Part shown: in pieces, positions 3,001 to 9,000 of the stretch
How the letters are laid out: each line of letters starts with the position of its first letter
How positions within the stretch are numbered: position 1 is the stretch's first letter
Source of the DNA: a plasmid
Sequence record: NZ_CP107261.1
Direction: 5' to 3' (one strand)
DNA: 46,896 bases
Made by a program: the position numbers

Positions 3001-6000
3001 CAACGGTCACTATAAAGGGGAATTACTGTGAAATCCGGGTCGCTTGCTGCACGCATTAAATCAAACATAGTTACCTCCACACTGTTTTTATATACAGTAT
3101 TATTGACTTATTGAGCGCACTTTCAAGTTTTGATTTACAGCTTAGCTCTGCTGCTTATCGCCAAAACCACCATTTGTCTCCCAGACTCCGTGTGCTGGTT
3201 ATCTCCTGCCATCGCTTAAAAGGTCGCAGCGTGCCGGCAAAATTCAAGCCACCCGCTGCGGCACCCGTTCGCACTCCTTCCCCCTGGTCAGTCGCTTGCG
3301 CTGCGGCTTAGCATCCGGGGCATGACTTTTACCTCATGGCACGTTGCCTCCCTTCGCTCATGGCGGGAGATAACGACCAACCTTCGAAAGGAGGACGGCA
3401 AAAGAAATTTTTTGAGAAAGGTAAAAAGGAGAAAGCAATGGATCTATACACACTTCTGACGGCAACCCGTGGACTCCAGATTCTGCAAAAAAATAGCTGG
3501 CCAGCCCTGGCACTGAATATTGCAGAGAATGGCTGTCAAATGACGATGACCGGCAAAATTAGCCCTGAAGGGCTCGTCAGTTTGTTACCGCAGCTGGCAG
3601 AACGCGGGCATCTTGCAAAAGGTGCTGTAACTGGTCTGGAACTGTTGTGTGGTAAAAATGCTGTGGAGGCCACGATCTGGGCCCAGGCAAGCGGTCGCAC
3701 TGTTAACGTTGATGTGAGTTTGAATGGGGTCCCTCAGGAACAGACTTTGTGCCAGGATTATCTGAAATTGGCCCTTCAGGATGATCTGTGGGTCCTCTGC
3801 AGTGACCTGTGGAGGGACGCTGAGAAAATTCTTCTGCATACCGGCGCCCGCTACGATGGAGCTCATATCTTTGAACGTGAAAGCCAGAATTTTATTGTTG
3901 CAGCCGAAGCGCTGTCAGAACTTCCTCCGACGGTAAAGCCCGGTGAGATGCTGCTGCAGGCATGGCTGGCTGAAATCCTGCAACACGGCTCTGAGGTGCT
4001 GGCGATCTGCCTCGTTGTATATCGCGATTATGGAATGCTCCGGATAAGTGAATTTTGTATGCCTGAGGTTTGCGTTATCCGTCCTAACTCCCTCGTTAGG
4101 CACTGGCTAAATCGTGAGCATGTATCCACTTTGACAGGGATTGCGCGCCGAAATATCGCGATTGAGCGTGAAATCACCTCAAGCTTTGAAAAGGCTAAAT
4201 TATTATCAGACGCTTAGTCGCGCAGAATACATAAAAATCATGTTATACCCACTGGCCAGCTTATGCTGGCCGATTTGATTTTACTCAGTAAAGAACTCGT
4301 AAACTCCATTGTCCTTGCCGCGCCAGCGCGGCGGAGAACTATAGCGTGCCTTCTCTTTATCCTGAACGCATCTAATCCAAAGGTTATCCTTATCGCTATA
4401 CTCTGCTGTGCGGTATTTTCAACGCACAACATATCTTCTAGAGACCTATGGCTAAGTAACCTTAAACGTCCGATTGTTTACTTAGAATAAGTTTGTTTTG
4501 GTTTTTAGTATCAATTATTCTAAAGGCACCATCCTTATCAATGATTAATTGATGAGAGTTGAGCGTGATGATGGTTTGATTTGCATTAGAAGTGGTAATG
4601 CCAGAGTTGATAGACCATTCTAGAGGGTAATTTTTATTTAATTCATCAATTGCTTCATTGATGATATTTTTCGCATCGTCTAGGTTTGCCGCTTTGCGTG
4701 ATTTTTCCAATCTAATTAGGAGGAAACTCAAACCCTCCTCTGCATACTTTTTCTTAAATTCATCCTTAAATTCTTCTACCTGTACATGACCCCAGCCAAC
4801 GAAGTTTGTTGATTTTCGGAGGTTGAATTCCTCCATGTCCGTTTCAAGCTCCGACCTTGCTTCTTTCGGTGTGCTGGCAGGAATGGGTGAGTCTTCTTCT
4901 TTAAGAACGCCTTCGTTCTCCACCTGTTTCGAAGAAAATAAGGATTTAAAAAAAAGTTGCAGTTTTCTCATAAGTAATCCGGTGAGTGACTATATCGAAA
5001 AATATACCATGGAATATGGTAATTTGTTAGTCAATGGATTTACCAGTATTAAATGCCAATAATTTAGTTTGGCTTTTAAATGTGATGTGCATATGTTCAA
5101 TCTTATATGGGTTTTGAACTTTTCACGTTAAGATTATACGAAGCATGATTAAACATACTCTTGTCTAAAAATCATGATGTCGTGAAATCCGTTTTTATGC
5201 TGGGCCAACTCAGCGGAAATTTGCGCCGTGCCTTCACTTTAGCCCGAACGCTCCAGATGCAAGGGTTCGCTTTGCCGGCATCCTCGCCCGGTCGCAGATT
5301 TTTACGCCTGATGTCGTTCTTCCCGTCGTTCTCCCGCTCAATTTTCGCGGGAGAACCGTCCAGATCGTCATCGCTTTTATCTGCGCTGCGGCCTGCGGTG
5401 TCGCCCTTGCATCTTCCGCTCGATGTCGGGCTGTCGTGTCGGCACGGCGCAACTGGGTGCCGGATGATGAGGAGAGCGTAATGTTCAGACTGACCTGTAT
5501 TGATCTCGATAATGGCGAGTTTGCCGTCTATCTCAATAACCACTACCTGGGAAGTGAAGACGGTAGCGTTGAAAAACTGTATCTGGGGGATGTGCTGGAA
5601 CGACTTTCCAGGATGCCGGGTGTGCAGCTCCAGACCATTCAGCAGCCTGTGCCCGGTGATGAAGAATGGTGCTGGAACGATGTCGCAGATTCCGTGCTTA
5701 CCCCGTCTCATATTTTGCGGCGGGAGATGACTGTGGGCGGAATGTTGACGCGTCTGCAGCAATACCCCCAGGACGCGCTCTGCACTGGCACATTCTGGCT
5801 TGAAGATGATTTTCTTGCGGTCGATGGCTCGCTTGATAGCGCGACGATTGCAGCGGCGATGGAACGCGCTTATTACGCGCACGATGCGAACTATGGATTT
5901 AACTGGGATCACCTGCGGCTTGCCATCAATGAGGTAAAAGACCTATGAACACCTGGCTGACAGGATTTCAGACCGAAACCCACTGCACTGAAACCGATGT

Positions 6001-9000
6001 TTATATGCTTATTGAAGCTGAAAATCTTGCCTTGGCCGAAGCTGGCGCCATGTCTATGGGGCGAACCTGGTGGCCAGATGTGAAAGAGGACAGCGCAGAT
6101 CACTGCAGGCTATATCCGGAGAGAAAAGTCTGGTTCAGCAGCATAGTGTTACTGGATGACGTTGAAAATACAGTGCTGCGTGGACTGAAGTTCCTCGATT
6201 GGTGGATCGTAACCGGTACACCCGAATGGCCGGTGATCAGGGACAGATGTGATATGGACTGGCAGGAGTACACCCAATAACGCTATGCCCGGCCAGGATT
6301 TTCTGGCCGGTATTTTCAACGCACAAGGATGTCGTTTACTCCGCTTTTTATGCCGCGCCAGCGCGGCGGATATCAGCGCCGTGCCTTCACTTTAGCCCGA
6401 ACGCTCCAGATACAAGGGTTCGCTTCGCCGCCATCCTCGCCCGGTCGCAGATTTATACGACTTAGGCCTTTCTTCCCGTCGTTCTCCCGCTCAATTTTCG
6501 CGGGAGAACCGTCCAGAACGTCCTCGCTTTTATCTGCGCTGCGGCCTGCGGTGTCGCCCTTGTATCTTCCGCTCGGTGTCGGGCTGTCGTGTCGGCACGG
6601 CGAAGACGTCGCCGCATCGATAGAAGGAGAAGATCATGACAACCGCTTATCGCTTTATGCACCGCCATACCCGCAACACACTGGTTTCACGTGGCTGGCC
6701 AGCCACAATGGATATCGATACCAGCCTGAATTACTCGCGCGGGGAGGGCGTTGCGTTTTATGGCCAGCTCGATGCCGCGCAACTACAGCGACTGTTACCT
6801 GAAATCGCCCTGCGGGGGTTAATGAGCGTACAGGCAGTGCAGATGCTGCTGCCGCTGATCCACAGAAGCGAACTGGTCGTTCGCCTTTACAGGAACTCGC
6901 TGGGGCACCGTAAGGCTCATGCTGGTACCATTTCACTGGAATACGACAACTGTCCTGCTGACATGAATACGCCACAAATTCTCTGCCTGCTGAAAGCGCT
7001 GCGCGACGAAATCAATCACGTCTGCAGCTGCGTGGCGTCGGCAGGTTATCGACTGACCGAAGCGCTGCGGCCTGCCACAGAGCCACTGGTACTGACCCGC
7101 CGCACACGTAACTTTACCCTGACGGTGACTGAAGTGGAGCAGGTTCAGGACGATGCTGAATGGGATAACGACACGCTGGATGCCAGACTGAAAGCCGTGC
7201 TCGACGAGAAAGAAACCTTCCGCCGTCTGAAGATCCGTCTGGAGTGTAATGGCCGCACCGTCGGACAGACGCATGTGCCATATGCCCTGCGTCACCCTGA
7301 CAGCCCATCACGTGTCTGGTTTGACCGCCACTGGTTGCGGGATGTAGTGAAAACAGCCAGAACAGAAATCGATGTGATGATGAAATCATTTTCCGGGATC
7401 AAGATCGCAGCCTGAGTTGAGGCGGGGCAGAGCGCCCCGCTTTTAAGCAAAAAGGATGTCGCACGCTCCGCTTTACCGGCGTGACCTCCACGTTGTTACG
7501 GCCACGCAGGCGAAAACGTCCGTGCGGTCTGCGGCTAACGCCGTGCCTTCACTTTAGCCCGAACGCTCCAGATGCAAGGGTTCGCTTCGCCGCCATCCTC
7601 GCCCGGTCGCAGATTTTTACGCCTGACGTCGTTCTTCCCGTCGTTCTCCCGCTCAGGTTTCGCGGAAGAACCGTCCAGATCGACATCGCTATTTATCTGC
7701 GCTGCGGCCTGCGGTGTCGCCCTTGCATCTTCCGCTCGAAGTCGGGCTGTCGTGTCGGCACGGCGTAAGCCGGAACTCAGACGACACTGGCAACGGAGGA
7801 TATTTTATGAGCACTACTACCCCGGCAATTTATGTTGGTACTTACCACAAATACAACTGCGGCAGTCTTTTCGGCAAGTGGTTCGATCTCACCGATTTTG
7901 ACGATAAGTCAGATTTTATGGAAGCGTGTCACGATTTGCATTCGAATGAGTCCGATCCGGAACTGATGTTCCAGGACTGGGAGGGGATCCCCGAAAAATT
8001 CGCTTCAGAAAGCTCAGTTGACTGGGATTTTATTGAGGCCTACAAGCGCGCGGTTTATGACGGTAAGGATCAGGCTTTCGTTGCCTGGGTGGAGTACACC
8101 GGTGAATGTGATTATGACCAATTTGAAGAGGCCTGGTGCGGTGAAGCAGCAAGTGAGGAAGATTACGCATATGAATTCGTGCAGGAGCACGGCTTGCTCA
8201 GTGAGCTGCCGGAGTCGCTTCATATCTACTTTGATTATGCCGAATACAGCCGGGATATGTTCCTGAATGGTCTGGTATTTCTTAACGGGCATGTCTTCCG
8301 CAACTTTTAAGGGCAGGGGGGGAACCCCCTAAATTAAGGAAAAAACTATGAAACTTGATGCACAAACCCGTGACATCCTGCGTCAGTACAAAAAACGAAT
8401 TAACGCCGGTCGCCGTGAGGCCGGTTTACGTGAGCTGAGAACCGAAGAAGTGATCGACGAAATTTGCCATTATATGAGCTGCCAGTCTGCGGTATACATA
8501 GGCGGACAGTATATCCGGCAGGATCACCGTTAAGGTGATTCCGGCAGGCGGCATCCCCGCCTGTCAGTCCGCGGGAAAACCCGGGCAGGCCTTGCCTGCC
8601 GGCGGCTGTCACTGCGCCTTCGGCGCCACGACATGCCGCCCTGCATGACCTGGCAGCGCAAGTCAGTAAAGAAATTAATAAGGTAAAAACATGAGCGAAA
8701 TTAATCTTTCAGGCCTCTCAAAAGACGACCAGGACAAGGTTGCGGTAGATCTGGCCGCGTCGGGTGTCGCGTACAAAGAGCGTCTGAATCAGCCTGCGGT
8801 ACCTGAAATTATCGCGCGCGAGCAGCCGGCGCATCTTCGCGAGTATTTTATGGAAAGGGTTCGCCACCACCGCCAGCTGAGCCTGCAGTTGCCGAAAGCG
8901 AGCGACCCTCAATATGCTGAGATGGCTGAAGCGAATAAAAAATAACGTTTTCAGAAAGATAACAGCTACAGTTTTCGGTTTTTCTTTCCTGCACTGGGCG

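What the first reader, a model, noticed from the sequence alone, without database searches (positions are those of the whole stretch)
5223..7765. Three dispersed ~227-bp Frpo/ssi-type ssDNA promoter repeats, each in front of a + strand gene, the third in front of ardA
Each repeat is a long imperfect palindrome whose two arms pair (cgccgtgcc/ggcacggcg and gatgcaaggg/cccttgcatc). That is the architecture of Frpo single-strand promoters, which fold in the incoming T-strand and drive early 'zygotic' expression of ssb, psiB and ardA in F and ColIb. All three copies and their genes share the orientation of psiB, psiA and hok, so the whole block can be transcribed from one transferred strand. Three near-identical copies within 2.5 kb also make an obvious recombination substrate.
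Basis: partly seen in the sequence, partly recalled or inferred. Interest (0 to 1): 0.6.

Follow-up and report, generated by a model that had tools for sequence, protein, structure and literature searches.

The report
Three class-2 single-strand DNA promoter hairpins
Three near-identical 230-base hairpin-forming repeats in front of ardA and two neighbouring gene units belong to an already described family of plasmid promoters that work only while the DNA is single-stranded just after conjugative entry, so they are real but ordinary for this kind of plasmid.

Summary
Three 230-232 nt copies (5223-5452, 6375-6605, 7537-7768; 91-95% identical) each end 29-39 nt before a + strand gene with a Shine-Dalgarno site; the third precedes ardA. 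Each folds as ssDNA into one long imperfect hairpin (-63 to -66 kcal/mol, z -6 to -7.5).

The family assignment is not. F Frpo/ssiD and ColIb ssi1-3 (class 1) match the window only at 9131-9529. The three repeats are instead class-2 ssDNA promoters. This is the family of the klcA and ardA hairpins of pESBL (Wen et al. 2025) and of ssp2 of F, which is also a replication roadblock. A profile built without any of these sequences recovers them all (E 1e-57 to 1e-60 for the window copies, about 1e-34 to 1e-36 for the F and pESBL elements).

Across 33 diverged members, 24 of 47 stem pairs show compensatory changes. G·T outnumbers A·C 46 to 4, so the - strand is the one that folds. The -10 hexamer (TAAAGT) exists only on the non-template arm, which predicts that duplex DNA is inactive.

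Caveat: here the leading region is cut by a Tn3-family transposon, and no oriT or relaxase was found. Known kind, low novelty.

The parts
5223..5452 (-). Class-2 ssDNA promoter hairpin, copy 1. The folding strand is the - strand, the presumed T-strand.
   Evidence: ssDNA fold -66.4 kcal/mol, z -6.5. Family profile E 3.4e-57, full length.
6375..6605 (-). Class-2 ssDNA promoter hairpin, copy 2. It carries the compensatory pair TTGTAT/ATACAA in the -35 stem.
   Evidence: Fold -63.3 kcal/mol, z -7.5. Profile E 4.5e-57. Sequence.
7537..7768 (-). Class-2 ssDNA promoter hairpin, copy 3, in front of ardA.
   Evidence: Fold -62.8 kcal/mol, z -6.1. Profile E 3.7e-60.
5236..5262 (-). Promoter core of copy 1 on the non-template arm. 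The -10 TAAAGT is the complement of 5236-5241 and the -35 TTGCAT is the complement of 5257-5262. The spacer is 15 nt on this arm and 19 nt on the opposite arm. The same elements lie at 6389-6394/6410-6415 (copy 2, -35 TTGTAT) and 7551-7556/7572-7577 (copy 3).
   Evidence: Read. TAnnnT is kept in all but one of the distinct profile-only family members that my collecting pattern did not select. Hexamer assignment is inference.
5431..5436 (+). The sequence that would sit at the -10 position if the DNA were duplex: TGTCGT on the + strand, with no A at position 2. The same sequence lies at 6584-6589 and 7747-7752. It is mismatched against the AAA of TAAAGT in the hairpin.
   Evidence: template arm ACGACA in 23 of 33 members. 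No sigma-70-like site was found in the intergenic duplex.
5444..5444 (+). Predicted transcription start, the A in ggcAcggcg, about 7 nt after the -10. The equivalent positions are 6597 and 7760.
   Evidence: Inference from promoter geometry. Not measured here.
5481..6280 (+). Unit 1: two overlapping genes, 5481-5948 (155 aa, weakly DUF5983-like) and 5945-6280 (111 aa), followed by a terminator-like hairpin at 6289-6310.
6636..7415 (+). Unit 2: a 259-aa gene, homologue of the F 258-aa gene that lies just upstream of ssp2 in F. A terminator-like hairpin follows at 7422-7444.
   Evidence: 31% identity, E 3e-21. (phrog_8919, unknown function). Sequence.
7807..8310 (+). Unit 3: ardA (167 aa), followed by a 61-aa ORF at 8348-8533.
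   Evidence: Pfam ArdA, E 5.7e-31. ORFs.
6325..6347 (+). Conserved accessory motif AAGGATGTCG..CTCCGCTTT upstream of copy 2. A second instance lies at 7452-7474 upstream of copy 3, and a degenerate one at about 5172-5195 upstream of copy 1.
   Evidence: (family D3). Function unknown.
4345..4403 (-). Decayed half-copy. Only the non-template arm remains (TTGGAT ... TAAAGA). It has no partner arm and forms no long hairpin.
   Evidence: The family profile does not retrieve it at E<=1e-3.
9131..9529 (-). The only classical (class-1, Frpo/ssi-type) element in the window, upstream of DUF905-parB-psiB-psiA.
   Evidence: blastn: F ssiD 69% over 356 nt, E 9e-30; Frpo'5 E 1.6e-46.

Best explanation
Each repeat is a class-2 single-strand DNA promoter of a plasmid leading region.

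Proposed mechanism:
1. When the plasmid strand that is the template for these genes (the - strand of the window) is single-stranded after conjugative entry, the ~230 nt element folds into a long imperfect hairpin.
2. The basal stem mimics a duplex sigma-70 promoter. The 3' arm supplies the non-template strand with -35 TTGCAT and -10 TAAAGT.
3. The central AAA of the -10 sits in a conserved 3x3 mismatch opposite GAC, so the hexamer is pre-exposed. The spacer is 15 nt on one arm and 19 nt on the other, about 17 on average.
4. RNA polymerase starts near the base of the stem (predicted A at 5444, 6597 and 7760). It runs out of the hairpin along the single-stranded template into the gene 29-39 nt downstream.
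5. Once the complementary strand is made, the hairpin is lost. The + strand then presents TGTCGT instead of a -10, and the promoter shuts off.

The result is early, transient ('zygotic') expression of three separate units: a 155-aa plus 111-aa pair, a 259-aa protein, and ardA with a small ORF. By homology with F ssp2, each hairpin may also slow complementary-strand synthesis.

Shown here: the repeats, the fold, family membership, covariation, strand bias and the promoter-like geometry. Inferred: the hexamer assignment, the start sites, the activity, and whether this truncated replicon is ever transferred.
For: Fold: -62.8 to -66.4 kcal/mol, z -6.1 to -7.5.

Family membership: an nhmmer profile was built from 29 other family members, excluding the window, its close relative, F and IncI plasmids.
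- Window copies: E 3.7e-60, 3.4e-57 and 4.5e-57, full length.
- F ssp2 region (41 nt before the ArdB/KlcA-like gene): E 2.9e-34 and 6.2e-36.
- pESBL-EA11 hits at 14051-14276, before ardA, and at 7104-7329, before klcA: E 4.1e-36 and 6.6e-36.
- Direct blastn of copy 3 against pESBL: 72-73% over 126 nt, E 4e-13 to 3e-14.

Literature: Wen et al. (PMC12672017) define class 2 as the hairpins 5' of klcA and ardA in pESBL. They mapped the start sites by 5' RACE, found strong induction at 15 min, and report conservation in F. The bioRxiv preprint 10.64898/2026.01.09.698686 shows that ssp2 of F drives yfgB (ArdB-like) and stalls complementary-strand synthesis until UvrD resolves it.

Covariation in 33 members of 54-82% identity:
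- 95.8% of cells paired
- 24 of 47 pairs with compensatory changes
- covariation score 0.331 against 0.045-0.071 for slid controls
- 0 of 500 shuffles reach the observed score

Strand: G·T wobbles 46 against A·C 4 in the - strand reading.

-10 element: TAnnnT is kept in all but one of the distinct profile-only members that my collecting pattern did not select.

Duplex form: no sigma-70-like site lies upstream of the genes.

Context: umuDC ... ardA ... parB-psiB-psiA-hok/sok, all on one strand, as in F and IncI leading regions.
Against: No transcription data exist for this sequence. The -35/-10 assignment and the start sites are read from geometry, and the published figures with the mapped starts were not available.

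The -35 (TTGCAT, 3 of 6) and the 15-nt spacer on the non-template arm are poor by duplex standards.

The members used for covariation were collected with a pattern that fixes CTTG, GGCTA, T and CACGGC. Conservation of those bases in that set is therefore by construction; removes this bias only in part.

In this window no oriT, relaxase, MobA or MobC is found. The leading region ends at a Tn3-family transposon near 14.26 kb. The T-strand identity is therefore inferred from relatives and from the G·T bias. The elements may not be used in this replicon.
Confidence: 0.85

Rival explanations
1. The repeats are true class-2 promoters by descent but are stranded relics in this replicon. The plasmid has lost its oriT and transfer region, is never single-stranded by conjugation, and the hairpins do nothing now (or act only if another oriT mobilises the plasmid).
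For: The window's two ends are contiguous in the relative plasmid, which fits a closed 46.9 kb circle. Similarity to the relative's leading region stops at about 13.9 kb, and a Tn3-family transposon 100% identical to copies in other plasmids follows. tblastn with the relative's relaxase, MobA, MobC and DUF932 proteins, and blastn with its oriT region, find nothing. Pfam and NCBIfam scans of the remaining large ORFs find no relaxase.
Against: All three hairpins are intact, including a compensatory change in copy 2, and their genes are open. Any loss must therefore be recent. An unrecognised oriT cannot be excluded by these searches. Whether the window is a whole replicon is inferred, not known.
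Confidence: 0.3
2. They are classical Frpo/ssi (class-1) single-strand promoters, homologous to F Frpo and ColIb ssi1-3.
For: Same general architecture (a long hairpin with promoter elements), same genomic region and same orientation.
Against: blastn (word size 7, E<=0.01) with F ssiD and ColIb Frpo1-3 finds nothing in 5223-7768 and hits only 9131-9529. The family profile does not retrieve any class-1 sequence at E<=1e-3. Wen et al. state that the class-2 hairpins show no sequence homology to ssi/Frpo.
Confidence: 0.03
3. The hairpins act mainly as barriers or priming sites for complementary-strand synthesis, and promoter activity is secondary. Three in a row would hold the downstream leading region single-stranded for longer.
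For: F ssp2, a homologue, stalls complementary-strand synthesis at the end of its stem. Deleting it halves PsiB production from a downstream class-1 promoter, and UvrD resolves the stall. In the window all three copies lie upstream of the class-1 element at 9131-9529 and of psiB/psiA, so they are placed to act in this way.
Against: This does not exclude promoter function. In F and pESBL the same elements drive the downstream gene. Each copy here sits at a fixed short distance before a Shine-Dalgarno site and start codon. The -10 TAnnnT is conserved, and a pure barrier would not need that.
Confidence: 0.1
4. The structure acts in RNA: a structured 5' leader, attenuator or antisense RNA, not in DNA.
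For: A long conserved hairpin with covariation would also fit a structured RNA.
Against: G·T outnumbers A·C 46 to 4 in the - strand reading. The sense mRNA would carry C·A mismatches at those positions. The predicted start lies at the base of the stem, so the hairpin is not in the mRNA. No Rfam family matches there. No promoter for an antisense RNA was seen.
Confidence: 0.03
5. They are selfish palindromic repeats of the REP or MITE type that spread within the plasmid.
For: Multiple near-identical palindromic copies in intergenic DNA.
Against: The copies have one orientation only. They always sit at a fixed short distance before a gene start. They are found at the same gene-relative position in F, pESBL, Yersinia and many other leading regions. 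No terminal repeats with target duplications were seen. The promoter hexamers and the conserved mismatches are under selection.
Confidence: 0.02

Closest known systems
Class-2 ssDNA promoters of IncI1 pESBL (5' of klcA and of ardA; Wen et al., NAR 2025, PMC12672017) and ssp2 of F (5' of yfgB/ArdB; bioRxiv 10.64898/2026.01.09.698686)
   Same: One sequence family: a profile that excludes all of them retrieves all of them full length. All are about 230 nt hairpins. The basal stem is the same (GCCGTGCC.../...GGCACGGC), with TTGCAT, 15 nt, then TAnnnT on the non-template arm. All sit directly before an anti-restriction gene in a leading region. The upstream AAGGAnGTCG motif is shared.
   Different: Only about 57-58% identical to F ssp2 over the whole element. 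The -10 is TAAAGT here and TAAGAT in F and pESBL. There are three copies within 2.5 kb here, against one long-form copy in F and two in pESBL. Two of the three drive genes of unknown function. In F and in the Yersinia plasmid, the homologue of the 259-aa gene has no hairpin in front of it but lies directly upstream of one, after the methylase gene. No activity data exist for this plasmid, and no oriT was found in the window.
Frpo'4, Frpo*1 and Frpo*3 candidates of Samuel et al., Nature 2024 (PMC11541004, Supplementary Table 2)
   Same: Frpo'4 matches the family profile full length (E 4.3e-34). Frpo*1 and Frpo*3 match on both arms, as short-form members. That study found thousands of such candidates in leading regions by BLAST.
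   Different: Those were computational candidates from an insect-gut metagenome element. They were labelled as similar to Frpo, although they are not detectably homologous to the classical Frpo/ssi sequences.
Class-1 Frpo/ssi promoters (F Frpo1/Frpo2 = ssiD type; ColIb-P9 ssi1-3; Masai & Arai 1997; Couturier et al. 2023, PMC9849209)
   Same: The principle is the same: a T-strand hairpin rebuilds -35 and -10, is active only in ssDNA, and drives zygotic induction of leading genes. One such element is present in the window at 9131-9529.
   Different: No detectable sequence similarity to the three repeats. The elements are longer (about 330 nt), have a different stem sequence, and precede different downstream operons (ssb or DUF905-parB-psiB-psiA).
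Class-3 ssDNA promoter (5' of M.EcoGIX in pESBL; ssp3 of F)
   Same: Leading-region hairpin promoter. It is preceded by the same AAGGATGTCGC...CTCC motif.
   Different: A different and larger hairpin (pESBL 4395-4783 and F L002 3785-4166, about -100 to -108 kcal/mol). It is not retrieved by the class-2 profile. No copy is present in the window.

Membership tests
Class-2 ssDNA promoter (ssp2 type) | Sequence homology to the pESBL klcA/ardA hairpins and to F ssp2 | tested here: met
   A profile built without the window, F or IncI sequences scores the window copies at E 3.7e-60 to 4.5e-57. It scores F at 2.9e-34 and 6.2e-36, and pESBL-EA11 at 4.1e-36 (14051-14276) and 6.6e-36 (7104-7329). Direct blastn reaches E 3e-14.
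Class-2 ssDNA promoter (ssp2 type) | Large stem-loop of the single strand that rebuilds -35 and -10 boxes | tested here: met
   Folds. TTGCAT-15-TAAAGT on the 3' arm, with the AAA mismatched. Covariation in 24 of 47 pairs. The hexamer assignment is inference.
Class-2 ssDNA promoter (ssp2 type) | Lies in the leading region, directly 5' of an operon, with the transferred strand as template | tested here: inconclusive
   The position and the co-orientation with psiB, psiA and hok are met. The G·T bias points to the - strand. However, no oriT or relaxase is in the window, so the transferred strand is inferred from relatives only.
Class-2 ssDNA promoter (ssp2 type) | Transcription starts at the predicted +1 in transconjugants, is induced early and decays on conversion to dsDNA | not testable with these tools
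   This was shown for pESBL by 5' RACE and RNA-seq, not for this sequence.
Class-2 ssDNA promoter (ssp2 type) | Inactive as duplex DNA | tested here: inconclusive
   In silico only. The duplex presents TGTCGT where the hairpin presents TAAAGT. No sigma-70-like site was found upstream of the genes.
Class-1 Frpo/ssi promoter | Sequence homology to F Frpo (ssiD) or ColIb-P9 ssi1-3 | tested here: not met
   No blastn match to 5223-7768 at E<=0.01; the only match is at 9131-9529. No class-1 sequence is retrieved by the family profile.
Class-1 Frpo/ssi promoter | T-strand hairpin with promoter elements and mismatches in the -10 region | tested here: met
   The working principle is shared, not the descent.
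REP/MITE-like palindromic mobile repeat | Terminal inverted repeats with target-site duplication; copies in either orientation at unrelated intergenic sites | tested here: not met
   All copies have one orientation and lie 29-39 nt before a start codon. The gene-relative position is the same across genera.

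The most novel reading that the evidence does not exclude
The three hairpins may be more than three independent promoters. As a tandem array of ssp2-type stems upstream of the class-1 promoter and psiB/psiA, they could act as a graded, multi-step barrier to complementary-strand synthesis. That would lengthen the single-stranded window for the whole downstream leading region. The conserved AAGGAnGTCG...CTCCGCTTT motif, which a polymerase copies just before each stem (and which also precedes class-3 hairpins), could be a functional part of that control. 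The near-identical promoters could also serve as recombination joints that shuffle terminator-motif-promoter-gene cassettes between leading regions.
Probability: 0.15. Interest if true: 0.5.

Novelty: new member of a known kind. Interest (0 to 1): 0.25.

Why it matters
It confirms that a reader can spot ssDNA promoters from sequence alone, and it corrects the family label. ArdA-type leading genes in IncF-like and IncI plasmids of Enterobacterales are mostly driven by class-2 hairpins, not by Frpo/ssi.

The family is very common: at least 5000 plasmid records match, and the listed hits carry almost no annotation over the match. A profile like the one used here could annotate these elements and flag the unknown genes behind them as likely early establishment or anti-defence genes. 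In this window those are the 155-aa, 111-aa and 259-aa proteins.

The covariation and the G·T/A·C asymmetry give sequence-only evidence that the template (transferred) strand is the one that folds. For this plasmid, which carries mcr-9, the apparent loss of oriT suggests that its leading-region machinery is a recent remnant.

Tried and rejected
- Classical Frpo/ssi homology: blastn with the five known sequences of Samuel et al. hit only 9131-9529. Rejected for the three repeats.
- Rfam: the only match in the window is sok; nothing matches at the repeats.
- Fourth copy at 4345-4403: only one arm survives, the fold is weak (-28.2 kcal/mol, z -2.2), and the profile does not retrieve it. I treat it as a remnant.
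- Duplex sigma-70 promoters upstream of the three units: none found.
- oriT and relaxase in the window: none found.
- Function of the downstream proteins: Pfam gives nothing for the 155-, 111-, 259- and 61-aa products. PHROGs gives only an unknown-function family for the 259-aa protein. tblastn gives a weak DUF5983-like match for the 155-aa protein.
- An ORF reading for the accessory motif (ATG at 6329): rejected, because F and IncI copies lack the ATG.
- Supplementary figures of Wen et al. with the mapped start sites: not held, so the start sites could not be transferred by alignment.
- Two structure-pair runs failed on string length and were repeated.

Full report
**What is there.** The window carries three direct repeats of about 230 nt. 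I place them at 5223-5452, 6375-6605 and 7537-7768. The repeat finder reports the family. blastn gives 92-96% identity between copies, and a family alignment gives 91.0-94.8%. A 25-mer from the left arm occurs three times exactly, against none expected in shuffles. Each copy is a long imperfect palindrome. Copy 2 has a G-to-A change in one arm matched by a C-to-T change in the other (gatAcaaggg / cccttgTatc). That is a compensatory change within the window itself.

Folded as single-stranded DNA, the - strand of the three copies gives one long hairpin of -66.4, -63.3 and -62.8 kcal/mol, with z-scores of -6.5, -7.5 and -6.1. The + strand of copy 1 folds slightly less well (-60.7). Each hairpin ends 29, 31 and 39 nt before an ATG that follows a Shine-Dalgarno sequence (5481, 6636, 7807). 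The third gene is ardA (Pfam E 5.7e-31).

The first two units end in terminator-like hairpins, at 6289-6310 and 7422-7444 (read). These are therefore three separate transcription units. A fourth, decayed half-copy lies at 4345-4403 and no longer folds.

**Context.** The window is 93-95% identical over this region to Leclercia adecarboxylata plasmids. The gene order is umuDC (- strand), then on the + strand the three units, a theta-subunit homologue, DUF905, parB, psiB, psiA and hok/sok. This is the leading-region layout of F and of IncI1 plasmids. In the closest complete relative the block continues to MobC, oriT, MobA and a relaxase on the hok side. There the template strand of these genes, which is the - strand of the window, is the one expected to be transferred.

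[quoted passage not shown] 2024 and compared them with the window. F ssiD and ColIb Frpo1-3 match only 9131-9529 (F ssiD 69% over 356 nt, E 9e-30), just upstream of DUF905-parB-psiB-psiA. They do not match the three repeats at E<=0.01. So the window has one classical (class-1) element, and the three repeats are something else. The same comparison showed weak two-arm similarity of the repeats to the candidates Frpo*1, Frpo*3 and Frpo'4 of that paper.

**What they are.** Wen et al. (NAR 2025, PMC12672017) studied IncI1 plasmid pESBL by donor-elimination RNA-seq and 5' RACE. They divide its six leading-region hairpin promoters into class 1 (ssi1-3, Frpo), class 2 (the two similar hairpins 5' of klcA and ardA, with no homology to class 1) and class 3 (5' of M.EcoGIX). 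They state that classes 2 and 3 are conserved in F. A 2026 preprint (10.64898/2026.01.09.698686) calls the F element ssp2. It shows that ssp2 drives yfgB, an ArdB-like gene, and that its stem stalls complementary-strand synthesis until UvrD resolves it.

The sequence just upstream of the ArdB/KlcA-like gene of F (L002 6485-6715) and those upstream of klcA and ardA in an IncI plasmid are visibly related to the repeats. They share the same basal stem and the same TTGCAT ... TAAGAT arm.

To test this without circularity, I built an nhmmer profile from 29 other family members. It excludes the window, its relative, F and the IncI plasmid. The results were:
- window copies, full length: E 3.7e-60, 3.4e-57 and 4.5e-57
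- F ssp2: E 2.9e-34 and 6.2e-36
- pESBL-EA11: 14051-14276, 42 nt before ardA, at 4.1e-36; 7104-7329, 43 nt before klcA, at 6.6e-36
- Frpo'4: E 4.3e-34
- no class-1 sequence retrieved

The repeats are therefore members of class 2.

**Selection on the structure.** A degenerate pattern of the promoter arm found about 120 loci in a species-representative genome collection. Nearly all were Enterobacterales (Erwinia, Pantoea, Klebsiella, Enterobacter, Yersinia, Salmonella and others), and several carried two or three copies per 8 kb. After removing near-duplicates I aligned 33 long-form members, 54-82% identical to copy 3.

The consensus fold has 47 pairs, and 24 of them show changes on both sides that keep the pair. 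With the named structure, 95.8% of cells pair. The covariation score is 0.331, against 0.045-0.071 when partners are slid by 1-3 columns, and no shuffle in 500 reaches the observed score. Non-Watson-Crick cells are strongly asymmetric: 46 G·T against 4 A·C. G·T on one strand is A·C on the other. The strand under selection to fold is therefore the - strand of the window, the template strand of the genes. It is neither the mRNA sense nor the duplex.

**Promoter anatomy.** On the 3' arm of the folded - strand the sequence reads CCCTTGCAT-ctggagcgttcgggc-TAAAGT-gaaggcACGGCG.
- TTGCAT and TAAAGT are the likely -35 and -10.
- The spacer is 15 nt on this arm and 19 nt on the opposite arm because of an asymmetric internal loop, so about 17 on average.
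- The central AAA of the -10 faces GAC in a conserved 3x3 mismatch.
- Across the family the -10 varies only in its middle: TAAAGT, TACAGT, TATAGT, TAGAGT, TAAGAT, TACCGT.

My collecting pattern fixed T, A and the last T, so I also looked at profile hits that the pattern had not selected. All but one of these distinct sequences keep TAnnnT.

The opposite (template) arm is ACGACA in 23 of 33 members. In duplex DNA the + strand would therefore show TGTCGT where a -10 is needed. The duplex scan finds no sigma-70-like site upstream of any of the three units. This gives a simple switch: the -10 exists only when the strand is folded on itself.

A start about 7 nt after the -10 would fall on the A of ggcAcggcg (5444, 6597, 7760). 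That leaves leaders of 36-47 nt which do not include the hairpin. The hexamer assignment and the start sites are inference. The published figures with the mapped starts were not available.

**How common.** Most are Klebsiella, at 80-90% identity, and the listed hits show almost no annotated feature over the match. Loci with three copies are not rare (L073, L093, L122). Samuel et al. had already counted thousands of such candidates. The family is thus known, widespread and experimentally supported in two model plasmids. Only this plasmid's copies are new.

**Caveat for this replicon.** The two ends of the window are contiguous in the relative plasmid, which suggests a closed 46.9 kb circle. Similarity to the relative's leading region ends near 13.9 kb, and a Tn3-family transposon 100% identical to copies elsewhere follows. 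No homologue of the relative's relaxase, MobA, MobC, DUF932 protein or oriT region is present. Domain scans of the other large ORFs show transposases, resolvases, IncFII RepA, metal and sulfate transporters, and an MCR-9 family gene. If this is the whole plasmid, the hairpins are intact but may no longer see a single-stranded state through conjugation. I give this reading about 0.3.

**Other readings.** An RNA element is unlikely because of the strand bias, the position of the predicted start and the absence of Rfam matches. A selfish palindromic repeat does not fit the single orientation and the fixed distance to start codons across genera. A role as a barrier to complementary-strand synthesis is likely to be additional rather than alternative, by homology with ssp2.

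**Side observations.**
- A conserved motif, AAGGA(T/A/C)GTCG ... CTCCGCTTT, lies 40-90 nt upstream of the class-2 hairpins here, in F and in IncI plasmids. It also lies upstream of the class-3 hairpin of F. Its function is unknown.
- A short-form relative of the class-2 core sits upstream of the DUF1281-type gene in pESBL, and a matching element is present in F.
- In the relative plasmid, copies 2 and 3 are more alike (97.8%) than either is to its orthologue here. This hints at exchange between copies.

**Verdict.** This is a new member of a known kind, and interest is low to moderate.

Noticed in passing
window 41249-42901 (-), with 39131-40480 (+): A phosphoethanolamine transferase that scores above the curated cut-off of the MCR-9 family (1316 bits against 1240), so this is an mcr-9-type colistin resistance gene. 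A sensor histidine kinase gene lies nearby, and IS1 and a tyrosine recombinase are adjacent.
   Followed up: partly
window 1 / 46896 junction; 13939-22035; 23039-24594: The window ends are contiguous in the relative plasmid, so the window looks like a closed 46.9 kb IncFII-type circle (RepA at 23551-24594, plus a truncated RepA-like ORF at 23039-23575). The leading region is cut after hok/sok by a Tn3-family transposon that carries glycosyltransferase, Usp and SulP genes. No relaxase or oriT was found.
   Followed up: partly
window 9131-9529 (-): One classical class-1 (Frpo/ssi-type) element upstream of DUF905-parB-psiB-psiA. The relative plasmid has a second copy after hok (L001 19057-19595, 96% identical to window 8980-9517). 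That part is missing from the window.
   Followed up: partly
window 6325-6347 and 7452-7474; F L002 3827 and 6396; L003 1960 and 8906: A conserved motif AAGGA(T/A/C)GTCG..CTCCGCTTT lies 40-90 nt upstream of class-2 hairpins and also before the class-3 hairpin of F. On the template strand it lies just 3' of the stem and outside the predicted transcript. No conserved ORF follows it. Its function is unknown.
   Followed up: partly
window 4345-4403 and 4400-5200: A decayed half-copy of the promoter (non-template arm only), followed by an AT-rich stretch with a - strand ORF (4462-4971, no Pfam match). An insertion seems to have destroyed a fourth promoter.
   Followed up: partly
L127 (pESBL-EA11) 3280-3438; L002 (F) 2664-2822: A short (~160-180 nt) hairpin with the same basal promoter stem as class 2 (TTGCAT-15-TAACGT). 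In pESBL it sits just upstream of the DUF1281-type gene that precedes the methylase gene, and a matching element is present in F. Short-form relatives are also common in other genera. I could not tell whether this element is among the six promoters already reported.
   Followed up: partly
L001 11376-11607 and 12538-12769, against window copies 2 and 3: In the relative plasmid, copies 2 and 3 are 97.8% identical to each other but only 94.8% and 97.0% identical to their orthologues in the window. The TTGTAT variant sits in copy 2 in the window but in the orthologue of copy 1 in the relative. This suggests gene conversion between copies.
   Followed up: partly
window 5481-5948, 5945-6280, 6636-7415, 8348-8533: Four genes of unknown function are placed directly under class-2 promoters. 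The 259-aa product is 31% identical to the F 258-aa protein encoded just upstream of ssp2. The 155-aa product is weakly DUF5983-like. By position they are candidate early establishment or anti-defence genes.
   Followed up: partly
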